Of a DNA stretch of 64,000 bases, positions 18,575-18,757 are shown piece after piece. The notes under the pieces were generated by a model. That model worked only from the letters and a program-made list of their open reading frames with translations. It searched no databases and was not told the DNA's origin. Source of the DNA: Escherichia coli (GTDB lineage Bacteria > Pseudomonadota > Gammaproteobacteria > Enterobacterales > Enterobacteriaceae); the NCBI RefSeq assembly GCF_051903065.1, contig NZ_CP178438.1, one strand, 5' to 3'. Numbering within the stretch: position 1 is the first letter of the stretch; each line of letters opens with the position of its first letter. The position numbers and the translations under genes are program-made.

Positions 18575-18605
18575 GCAACCTACAAACGTTGCTGACTGTA
18601 GGCCG

Positions 18606-18735
18606 GATAAGGCATTTACGCCGCATCCGGCAATCGGTGCACGATGCCTGATGCGACGCTTGCGCGTCTTATCATGCCTACAACCGTTGCCGAACGTAGG
18701 CTGGATAAGGCGTTTACGCCGCATCCGGCAATTCT
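18606..18735. repeat. REP/BIME cluster in the aceA-aceK intergenic region
   Basis: Several copies of the GCCGGATGCGGCGTAAACGCCTTATCCGGCCTAC-type palindromic unit in alternating orientation. Confidence 0.9.
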
Positions 18736-18757
18736 CTGCTCCTGATGAGGGCGCTAA

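What the first reader, a model, noticed from the sequence alone, without database searches (positions are those of the whole stretch)
18590..18745. Large REP/BIME cluster inside the aceBAK operon, between aceA and aceK
About 130 bp of alternating REP units lie within an operon rather than at its end. Intra-operonic REP hairpins are known to set differential mRNA stability, which fits the strong down-shift of aceK expression relative to aceBA. Similar clusters occur at malE-malF (52150-52275) and after lamB (56378-56500).
Basis: partly seen in the sequence, partly recalled or inferred. Interest (0 to 1): 0.2.

Follow-up and report, generated by a model that had tools for sequence, protein, structure and literature searches.

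The report
Known REP cluster between aceA and aceK
The stretch is an ordinary, long-known cluster of three E. coli REP hairpin repeats in the spacer between aceA and aceK; its copy number ranges from 0 to 5 among E. coli strains, and it is at most one contributor to the low expression of aceK.

Summary
Observation confirmed. The window is E. coli. aceA ends at 18574, aceK starts at 18758, and the 183-nt spacer holds three REP units in alternating orientation: y 18598-18631(-), z2 18646-18681(+), y 18696-18729(-). Each is 1 mismatch from consensus, with 0 matches expected by chance. Each folds into a -15 to -19 kcal/mol hairpin. This is a BIME-2-type cluster and also scores above threshold for Rfam naRNA4, which is itself a y/z2 unit.

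The site is highly polymorphic. E. coli genomes carry 0, 1, 2, 3, 4 or 5 REPs here, giving spacers of 48-280 nt. Five is commonest (about 47%), the window's three about 19%, and none 13% (718 of 5,426 genomes). E. albertii has about 11.

Interpretation partly supported. Published K-12 Term-seq shows a minor RNA 3' end 4 nt after the last REP stem, as expected of an exonuclease barrier or weak attenuator. A roughly 50-fold more abundant 3' end lies at a conserved intrinsic terminator 340-368 nt inside aceK (window 19096-19125, the AceK-int sRNA end). The literature attributes the aceK down-shift mainly to poor translation and termination within aceK.

Already known; low interest.

The parts
17255..18574 (+). 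aceA (isocitrate lyase); stop codon TAA at 18572-18574
   Evidence: NCBIfam NF011645 equivalog, 802 bits; ORF list
18579..18597 (.). Left flank of the cluster: a CCTAC remnant (z2 tail) plus a tail-to-tail linker. This is the first 19 nt of the 98-nt-spaced direct repeat.
   Evidence: Direct repeat 18579-18634 / 18677-18732, 89% identical. K-12 has CAACAACAACCG here instead.
18598..18631 (-). REP1, y type (GTAG foot at 18598-18601; stem arms 18602-18613 / 18620-18631)
   Evidence: 1 mismatch to the y consensus, 0 expected by chance. RNA hairpin -19.1 kcal/mol, z -4.2.
18632..18645 (.). Head-to-head linker (AATCGGTGCACGAT). It is 7 nt shorter in some alleles (AATCAGC).
   Evidence: Sequence
18646..18681 (+). 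REP2, z2 type (CTAC foot at 18678-18681)
   Evidence: 1 mismatch to the z2 consensus, 0 expected by chance. RNA hairpin -14.8 kcal/mol, z -3.3. Together with REP1 it gives the Rfam naRNA4 hit at 18601-18678, 81.8 bits.
18682..18695 (.). Tail-to-tail linker (AACCGTTGCCGAAC)
   Evidence: Sequence; part of the 56-nt direct repeat
18696..18729 (-). REP3, y type (GTAG foot at 18696-18699)
   Evidence: 1 mismatch to the y consensus. RNA hairpin -18.7 kcal/mol, z -3.8.
18733..18733 (+). Position equivalent to the K-12 Term-seq RNA 3' end at 4218571, 4 nt after the REP3 stem (minor: 1,115 reads, LB OD 2.0)
   Evidence: PMC7815308 supplementary file 1. Mapped through the aceK start, 4218596 in NC_000913.3.
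18747..18760 (+). aceK Shine-Dalgarno-like GAGGG (18747-18751) and ATG (18758-18760)
   Evidence: Sequence. No significant local structure over it: z +0.53 for 18730-18790.
18758..20494 (+). aceK (isocitrate dehydrogenase kinase/phosphatase)
   Evidence: NCBIfam NF002804 equivalog, 945 bits
19041..19125 (+). Not part of the REP cluster, but needed to explain aceK expression. This is the AceK-int sRNA region, ending in an intrinsic terminator: stem 19096-19117 followed by CTTTTTATCT.
   Evidence: Terminator scan. ncRNA b4830 at 4218879-4218963 in NC_000913.3. Term-seq 3' end with 56,453 reads and intrinsic terminator score 5.9 (PMC7815308). Stem codons are conserved in 12 of 13 enterobacterial sequences.

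Best explanation
The feature is a BIME-2-type cluster of three REP palindromic units (y, z2, y) in the aceA-aceK spacer. It is a non-autonomous repeat that is amplified and lost in 98-nt y+z2 steps. Because it is co-transcribed within the aceBAK mRNA, each unit forms a stable hairpin.

The most likely effect is local and quantitative. After transcripts end or are cut downstream, mainly at the intrinsic terminator about 368 nt into the poorly translated aceK, 3'-to-5' exonucleases trim back and stall at the REP hairpins. This leaves a protected aceBA message. A small fraction of polymerases may also stop at the REPs through Rho-assisted attenuation, as shown for REP325. The cluster would then raise aceBA relative to aceK, but it is not the main cause of the aceK down-shift.

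Shown here: the identity and anatomy of the REPs, the hairpin stability, the strain polymorphism, and the sequence of the aceK-internal terminator. Taken from published data: the RNA 3' ends at both places. Inferred: the order of events and the size of the REP contribution.
For: - **Identity:** consensus matches with 0 expected by chance; GTAG/CTAC feet; hairpins of -15 to -19 kcal/mol; Rfam naRNA4 (a y/z2 unit) at 81.8 bits against a gathering score of 59.5.
- **BIME-2 behaviour:** y and z2 alternate. Alleles with 0, 1, 2, 3, 4 and 5 REPs occur at this locus in E. coli, and E. albertii has 5.6 tandem copies of a 91-nt unit. This is the variability that PMC3333891 describes for BIME-2.
- **RNA level:** a K-12 Term-seq 3' end lies 4 nt after the REP3 stem (PMC7815308). 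REP325, also a y/z2 array inside an operon, both stabilises the upstream gene and attenuates the downstream one. The 146 REP-containing tandem gene pairs have higher upstream/downstream ratios than controls (bioRxiv 10.64898/2026.03.23.713779).
- **Main down-shift elsewhere:** the terminator at 19096-19125 coincides with the dominant 3' end, 56,453 reads. Premature termination is seen inside aceK in BL21(DE3) (PMC5435950). The same 3' end is found in aceK orthologues of other genera (PMC10687069).
Against: - No experiment on this particular REP cluster was available. Chung et al. 1993 (PMID 8331088) is not held.
- The REP-proximal 3' end is weak: 1,115 reads, seen only in the LB OD 2.0 sheet.
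- Term-seq counts reflect steady-state abundance, and AceK-int is a stabilised Hfq-bound sRNA. The 50:1 ratio therefore does not measure termination efficiency.
- REPs do not uniformly lengthen mRNA half-lives (abstract of bioRxiv 10.64898/2026.03.23.713779).
- 13% of E. coli genomes lack REPs here, so any effect is dispensable.
Confidence: 0.6

Rival explanations
1. The cluster is a selectively neutral or selfish repeat. It sits here because the aceA-aceK spacer tolerates insertions. Its copy number drifts through recombination or RAYT (TnpA-REP) activity, with no meaningful effect on aceBAK expression.
For: Copy number ranges from 0 to 5 within E. coli and reaches about 11 in E. albertii. 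The 2- and 4-REP alleles end in a chimeric z2/y unit, typical of recombination between repeats. PMC3333891 reports in-vitro cleavage and recombination of BIMEs by TnpA-REP and locus-specific copy-number variation. REPs show no uniform effect on half-life.
Against: A 3' end does map at the foot of REP3. All 13 spacers examined (11 other enterobacteria, the window allele and the REP-less E. coli allele) carry at least one stable GC-rich palindrome, belonging to at least three different kinds. That hints at selection for a hairpin, although a permissive insertion site would explain it as well.
Confidence: 0.28
2. The cluster acts at the DNA level. As a BIME-2 it would bind DNA gyrase or act as a topological insulator between the heavily transcribed aceBA and aceK (from general knowledge of BIME-2).
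For: The y/z2 composition is that of BIME-2. PMC3333891 lists binding of gyrase, Pol I and IHF, and insulation of supercoiling, among reported REP roles.
Against: Nothing at this locus speaks for it. No IHF consensus lies in the spacer. The REP-less allele is common. Protein binding cannot be tested with these tools.
Confidence: 0.07
3. The cluster is a nucleoid-associated noncoding RNA gene (naRNA4-like) whose RNA binds HU and helps condense the chromosome.
For: Rfam RF02564 match above the gathering score at 18601-18678.
Against: The family model is a generic y/z2 REP pair. It also hits three other REP clusters in this window and scores 48 bits on the opposite strand of the same site. The 2026 preprint reports that REP325/naRNA4 does not measurably compact the nucleoid. 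No promoter-like site was found in the spacer.
Confidence: 0.03
4. The REPs lower translation of the upstream gene aceA by stalling terminating ribosomes. This is the mechanism reported for REPs that lie close to a stop codon.
For: The REPs lie downstream of the aceA stop codon.
Against: [quoted passage not shown] Here the GTAG foot is 23 nt and the stem 27 nt beyond the stop. The small hairpin directly after the stop is not significant (-6.9 kcal/mol, z -0.87). aceA is also the most highly expressed product of the operon (ratio cited in PMC5435950).
Confidence: 0.02

Closest known systems
BIME-2 clusters of REP (palindromic unit) elements of E. coli
   Same: y and z2 units in alternating orientation. 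GTAG/CTAC feet. Imperfect palindromes with an internal mismatch. Extragenic location. Tandem amplification and strain-to-strain variation in copy number.
   Different: Nothing essential. The linker types (S, s, l, r) were not assigned. The head-to-head linker is 14 nt in this allele and 7 nt in some others.
malE-malF REP cluster, the classic intra-operon REP mRNA stabiliser, also present in this window at 52147-52270
   Same: Three REPs between two genes of one operon, with the upstream gene expressed more highly than the downstream one. The role of such REPs as 3'-exonuclease barriers is described in the introduction of bioRxiv 10.64898/2026.03.23.713779.
   Different: For aceBAK, the published dissection places the transcript truncation inside aceK and invokes poor aceK translation (PMC5435950; my recollection of Chung et al. 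1993). No REP-deletion experiment for this locus was found.
REP325 / naRNA4 in the yjdM-yjdN operon (Rfam RF02564)
   Same: A y/z2 array inside an operon. The covariance model matches at 81.8 bits. Its proposed dual role as stabiliser and partly Rho-dependent attenuator is the best mechanistic analogue.
   Different: REP325 has 12 units; this allele has 3. About 8-10-fold attenuation was measured for REP325, whereas nothing has been measured here. Here a separate intrinsic terminator lies downstream, inside aceK.

Membership tests
REP / palindromic unit (E. coli y, z1, z2) | Imperfect palindrome of 30-40 nt matching a y, z1 or z2 consensus | tested here: met
   y at 18598-18631 and 18696-18729 and z2 at 18646-18681, each with 1 mismatch, 0 expected by chance. 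Hairpins of -14.8 to -19.1 kcal/mol.
REP / palindromic unit (E. coli y, z1, z2) | Conserved GTAG (or CTAC on the other strand) tetranucleotide at the foot, and a mismatch in the stem (PMC3333891) | tested here: met
   GTAG at 18598-18601 and 18696-18699; CTAC at 18678-18681. Internal 2x2 loops appear in the predicted y hairpins.
REP / palindromic unit (E. coli y, z1, z2) | Extragenic location and many copies per genome | tested here: met
   The cluster lies wholly in the 183-nt spacer. There are 9 consensus hits in this 64-kb window. A median of 20-28 BLAST places per E. coli genome was found for queries containing the cluster.
BIME-2 | Composed of y and z2 in inverse orientation | tested here: met
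   y(-), z2(+), y(-); definition from PMC3333891
BIME-2 | Occurs as tandem copies whose number varies between strains at a given locus | tested here: met
   Spacers of 48, 85, 124, 182/183, 215-228 and 280 nt carry 0-5 REPs in E. coli. E. albertii has 5.6 copies of a 91-nt unit.
BIME-2 | Short S linker between the two REPs, and s, l or r flanking motifs | tested here: inconclusive
   The linkers are short (14 nt each), but I had no reference sequences for S, s, l or r with which to assign them.
BIME-1 | y plus z1 separated by a long L linker that usually carries an IHF site | tested here: not met
   The middle unit matches z2. No WATCAANNNNTTR match lies in 18575-18757; the matches nearest the spacer are at 16487 and 22014.
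Rfam RF02564 naRNA4 | Covariance-model score at or above the gathering threshold | tested here: met
   81.8 bits against 59.5 at 18601-18678 (+). The opposite strand scores 48.2 bits and REP3 alone 39.2 bits.
Rfam RF02564 naRNA4 | A discrete HU-associated RNA with a role in the nucleoid | not testable with these tools
   No expression or binding data for this locus. The role itself is disputed by bioRxiv 10.64898/2026.03.23.713779.
Intrinsic (Rho-independent) terminator | GC-rich hairpin immediately followed by a U-tract | tested here: not met
   The terminator scan finds none in the spacer; the REPs are followed by AATCGG, AACCGT and AATTCTCTGC. The scan does find one inside aceK at 19096-19117 followed by CTTTTTATCT.
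REPs that down-regulate translation of the upstream gene | [quoted passage not shown] | tested here: not met
   23 nt from the stop codon to the GTAG foot and 27 nt to the stem

The most novel reading that the evidence does not exclude
A stable hairpin at the aceA-aceK junction is under selection throughout the Enterobacteriaceae and is supplied by whichever palindromic repeat family is active in the lineage. Escherichia carries y/z2 REPs. Citrobacter and Kluyvera intermedia carry other REP types. Enterobacter, Pluralibacter and Kluyvera genomosp. 1 carry CCCTCTCCC...GGGAGAGGG elements. The REP-less E. coli allele carries a private hairpin. Within Escherichia, the heritable copy number (0-11) would then act as a rheostat on the isocitrate lyase to AceK ratio, and so on the set point of the glyoxylate shunt.
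Probability: 0.15. Interest if true: 0.4.

Novelty: already known. Interest (0 to 1): 0.1.

Why it matters
It matters little beyond good annotation. AceK is needed in tiny amounts relative to isocitrate lyase, so the way the operon achieves a roughly 300-fold step-down is a textbook case of differential expression within an operon. The useful correction is that the REP cluster should not be credited with that step-down. An intrinsic terminator inside aceK, together with (from the literature) weak aceK translation, carries most of it. The REP array is a variable accessory that many strains lack. The natural series of alleles (0, 1, 2, 3, 4 and 5 REPs in E. coli, about 11 in E. albertii) does offer a ready-made experiment for measuring what each added REP does to the stability of upstream mRNA and to read-through.

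Tried and rejected
- **Tandem Repeats Finder:** no call in the window, because only about 1.6 copies of the 98-nt unit are present. It does call the E. albertii array.
- **Promoter scan:** no promoter-like site in the spacer on either strand, so there is no support for an independent transcript.
- **Masking of the aceK Shine-Dalgarno sequence:** the fold of 18730-18790 is no better than shuffles (z +0.53). The long-range pairing of the REP1 loop with the aceK start in the full-length fold depends on bases that differ in K-12. Both ideas were dropped.
- **Small hairpin directly after the aceA stop:** not significant (z -0.87).
- **IHF site (BIME-1):** absent from the spacer.
- **Chung et al. 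1993 (PMC204903):** not held. Its conclusions are used only as cited by PMC5435950 and, where marked, from memory. Literature searches pairing aceK with REP terms found no paper on this cluster.
- **Hairpin of the REP-less allele:** comparison with the GC-rich palindrome in the K-12 rluF-yjbD spacer gave only a weak local match (score 22), which is inconclusive. The Enterobacter, Pluralibacter and Kluyvera genomosp. 1 elements match that K-12 element better (scores 43, 32, 35). Searches for that element in the window found nothing relevant.
- **Genome-collection pattern scan:** it returned only 11 enterobacterial loci and no Salmonella or Klebsiella, so those genera were not examined directly.

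Full report
**What is there**

The window is E. coli. At this spot it is 100% identical to strain S51 and 97.8% identical to K-12. NCBIfam equivalog models identify metA (14441-15370), aceB (15621-17240), aceA (17255-18574) and aceK (18758-20494). The aceA-aceK spacer is 18575-18757, 183 nt.

Consensus scans allowing 3 mismatches place three REP units in it:
- a y-type REP at 18598-18631 on the minus strand;
- a z2-type REP at 18646-18681 on the plus strand;
- a second y-type REP at 18696-18729 on the minus strand.

Each has one mismatch, and no match occurred in 100 dinucleotide-preserving shuffles of the window. The GTAG/CTAC foot tetranucleotides are in place. A 56-nt direct repeat with 98-nt spacing shows that the amplified unit is linker + y + linker + z2.

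As RNA on the operon's sense strand, the three units fold at -19.1, -14.8 and -18.7 kcal/mol (z -4.2, -3.3 and -3.8). The whole spacer folds at -95 kcal/mol (z -5.9).

- malE-malF, 52147-52270;
- downstream of lamB, 56376-56497, which lies between lamB and the next ORF and so is also intra-operonic.

**What kind of thing it is**

By the definitions in PMC3333891, alternating y and z2 units with short linkers make a BIME-2. BIME-1 is excluded: the middle unit is z2, and no IHF consensus lies in the spacer.

Rfam's naRNA4 model (RF02564) matches 18601-18678 at 81.8 bits against a gathering score of 59.5. That model is a generic y/z2 pair, however. It hits three other REP clusters in this window and also scores 48 bits on the opposite strand of the same site. 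The match confirms REP identity rather than an sRNA gene. None of the three hairpins is followed by a U-tract, and the terminator scan finds nothing in the spacer.

Among 5,426 complete E. coli genomes the spacer comes in discrete lengths. I read the sequence of 13 examples. The shares below come from two evenly spaced samples down the hit rankings, pooled to n = 98 chromosomes. In the table, y' stands for a chimeric z2/y unit that looks like a recombination product.

| Spacer length | REP content | Share of sample |
|---|---|---|
| 48 nt | none | 13% |
| 85 nt | one y | 2% |
| 124 nt | y plus y' | 11% |
| 182/183 nt | y-z2-y (K-12 and this window) | 19% |
| 215-228 nt | y-z2-y-y' | 7% |
| 280 nt | y-z2-y-z2-y | 47% |

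- A direct query with the REP-less allele finds it at 80% or greater coverage in 718 genomes (13.2%), which agrees with the sample.
- The 280-nt class includes a BL21(DE3) derivative.
- For most rows the class is inferred from the length of the matched span, and the genome collection is not a random sample of the species.

In relatives retrieved from the genome collection:
- E. albertii has a 542-nt spacer with 5.6 tandem copies of a 91-nt y/z2 unit.
- E. whittamii has 308 nt with six REPs.
- Two other Escherichia lineages have four and two REPs.

This is the locus-specific copy-number variability already described for BIME-2 (PMC3333891).

**How it probably works, and how far it explains aceK**

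Three published data sets bear on this.
- **REP325 as an analogue.** REP325, another y/z2 array inside an operon, both stabilises the upstream gene and attenuates the downstream one, partly through Rho. Across 146 REP-containing tandem gene pairs the upstream/downstream expression ratio is higher than in controls, with large variance (bioRxiv 10.64898/2026.03.23.713779).
- **3' ends in K-12.** Term-seq at LB OD 2.0 lists a 3' end at 4218571 (PMC7815308 supplementary file 1). The aceK start is at 4218596 in NC_000913.3, so this maps to window position 18733, 4 nt after the REP3 stem. That is where an exonuclease-trimmed or attenuated end would be expected. It has 1,115 reads.
- **The dominant end is inside aceK.** The same sheet lists 56,453 reads at 4218963, which is 367 nt into aceK. 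This is the 3' end of the annotated sRNA AceK-int (b4830), with an intrinsic terminator score of 5.9.

In the window that site is the hairpin CCGCTCG-CTTACTCC-CGAGCGG followed by CTTTTTATCT at 19096-19125, and the terminator scan found it independently. Its stem codons (CGC/CGT, TCG ... GAG, CGG) are kept in 12 of 13 enterobacterial sequences, while neighbouring codons vary synonymously. PMC10687069 reports the same 3' terminus in aceK orthologues of Klebsiella, Salmonella and other E. coli pathotypes. PMC5435950 reports premature termination within aceK in BL21(DE3) and cites the 0.3:1:0.003 product ratio. My recollection of Chung et al. 1993, which is not held, is that inefficient aceK translation plus premature termination explain the down-shift.

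The best-supported picture is therefore as follows:
- Most transcripts end, or are processed, inside the poorly translated aceK.
- Exonucleases trim back to the REP hairpins, which protect aceBA.
- A small share of transcription may stop at the REPs themselves.

The REP cluster is a modulator, not the main switch. The order of events and the size of the REP contribution are inferences. Term-seq counts are steady-state abundances, and they are inflated for a stable Hfq-bound sRNA.

**Rivals**

- **Neutral or selfish repeat with no expression effect.** This remains quite possible given the 0-5 (to 11) range and the 13% of genomes with no REP.
- **DNA-level role (gyrase binding, insulation of supercoiling).** Cannot be tested here, and nothing local supports it.
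- **naRNA4/HU reading.** Weak, for the reasons given above.
- **Translational repression of aceA by ribosome stalling.** Excluded by distance: the REP foot is 23 nt and the stem 27 nt past the stop codon, against the requirement of fewer than 16 nt (PMC12306157).

**Seen along the way**

- The REP-less E. coli allele is not a simple deletion. Its whole 48-nt spacer differs. It holds its own GC-rich hairpin and a stronger Shine-Dalgarno sequence (AAGGAG, 5-nt spacer) than the GAGGG of the REP-bearing alleles.
- All 13 spacers examined (11 other enterobacteria, the window allele and the REP-less E. coli allele) fold strongly and carry some GC-rich palindrome. Citrobacter, Kluyvera intermedia and one unnamed genus have two inverted REP-like units. 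Enterobacter, Pluralibacter and Kluyvera genomosp. 1 have CCCTCTCCC...GGGAGAGGG-type elements, which resemble the palindrome in the K-12 rluF-yjbD spacer.
- This could mean selection for a hairpin at this junction, or merely a permissive insertion site. I rate the selective reading at about 0.15.

**Verdict**

This is a real, correctly located and correctly named REP/BIME-2 cluster. It is already known: from memory, it was noted when aceK was sequenced in 1988, and it is catalogued among the E. coli REP elements. Its variability is typical of its class. The functional gloss is only partly right. Interest is low.

Noticed in passing
window 19041-19125 (terminator hairpin 19096-19117 plus CTTTTTATCT): An intrinsic terminator lies inside the aceK coding sequence and coincides with the 3' end of the annotated sRNA AceK-int. 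The stem-forming codons (CGC TCG ... GAG CGG) are kept in 12 of 13 enterobacterial sequences, while neighbouring codons vary synonymously.
   Followed up: yes
L007:501-548 (E. coli strain ECO21); the same allele occurs in 718 of 5,426 genomes: A REP-less aceA-aceK spacer of 48 nt with an unrelated sequence. It has its own GC-rich hairpin (GCCCCTTTCCGTAAGGCGAGGGGC) and a stronger aceK Shine-Dalgarno sequence (AAGGAG) than the REP-bearing alleles. Whether these strains make more AceK is unknown.
   Followed up: partly
L011:4752-5293 (Escherichia albertii NBRC 107761): The same junction carries a 542-nt array of about 11 REPs (5.6 copies of a 91-nt y/z2 unit, 91% matches). This is about four times the number of REPs in the window.
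   Followed up: partly
aceA-aceK spacers in L015, L019, L021, L031 (Pluralibacter, Kluyvera genomosp. 1, Enterobacter sp., Enterobacteriaceae bacterium 89): These genera have no y/z2 REPs at the junction. They carry a different GC-rich palindrome (CCCTCTCCC...GGGAGAGGG type). Three of them were aligned to the element in the K-12 rluF-yjbD spacer (L036) and resemble it; Enterobacteriaceae bacterium 89 was not aligned. All 13 spacers examined have some stable palindrome.
   Followed up: partly
window 42472-42546, with an Rfam STnc430 hit at 42612-42761(-) and a lysine riboswitch at 40363-40559(-): A further REP cluster not listed in the finding: a perfect y consensus at 42472-42505 and a naRNA4 hit of 81.3 bits, just after the 551-aa ORF 40790-42445. 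I did not identify the neighbouring genes.
   Followed up: no
window 15485-15497: A perfect match to the IHF consensus (TATCAATAAGTTA) lies about 125 nt upstream of the aceB start. From memory, the aceBAK promoter is IHF-dependent. A second match, at 22014-22026(-), lies next to the end of the minus-strand ORF 20463-22016.
   Followed up: no
window 61048-61081: A solitary, degenerate y-type REP with 3 mismatches to the consensus. Its context was not examined.
   Followed up: no
L003-L007 compared with the window, L001, L002 and L008: The annotated aceK is 1,725 nt (574 aa) in the 0-, 1-, 2- and some 4-REP alleles, but 1,737 nt (578 aa) in the 3- and 5-REP alleles and in one 4-REP allele (L035). 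The spacer allele thus seems linked to an aceK length variant, which suggests distinct haplotypes of the whole region.
   Followed up: no
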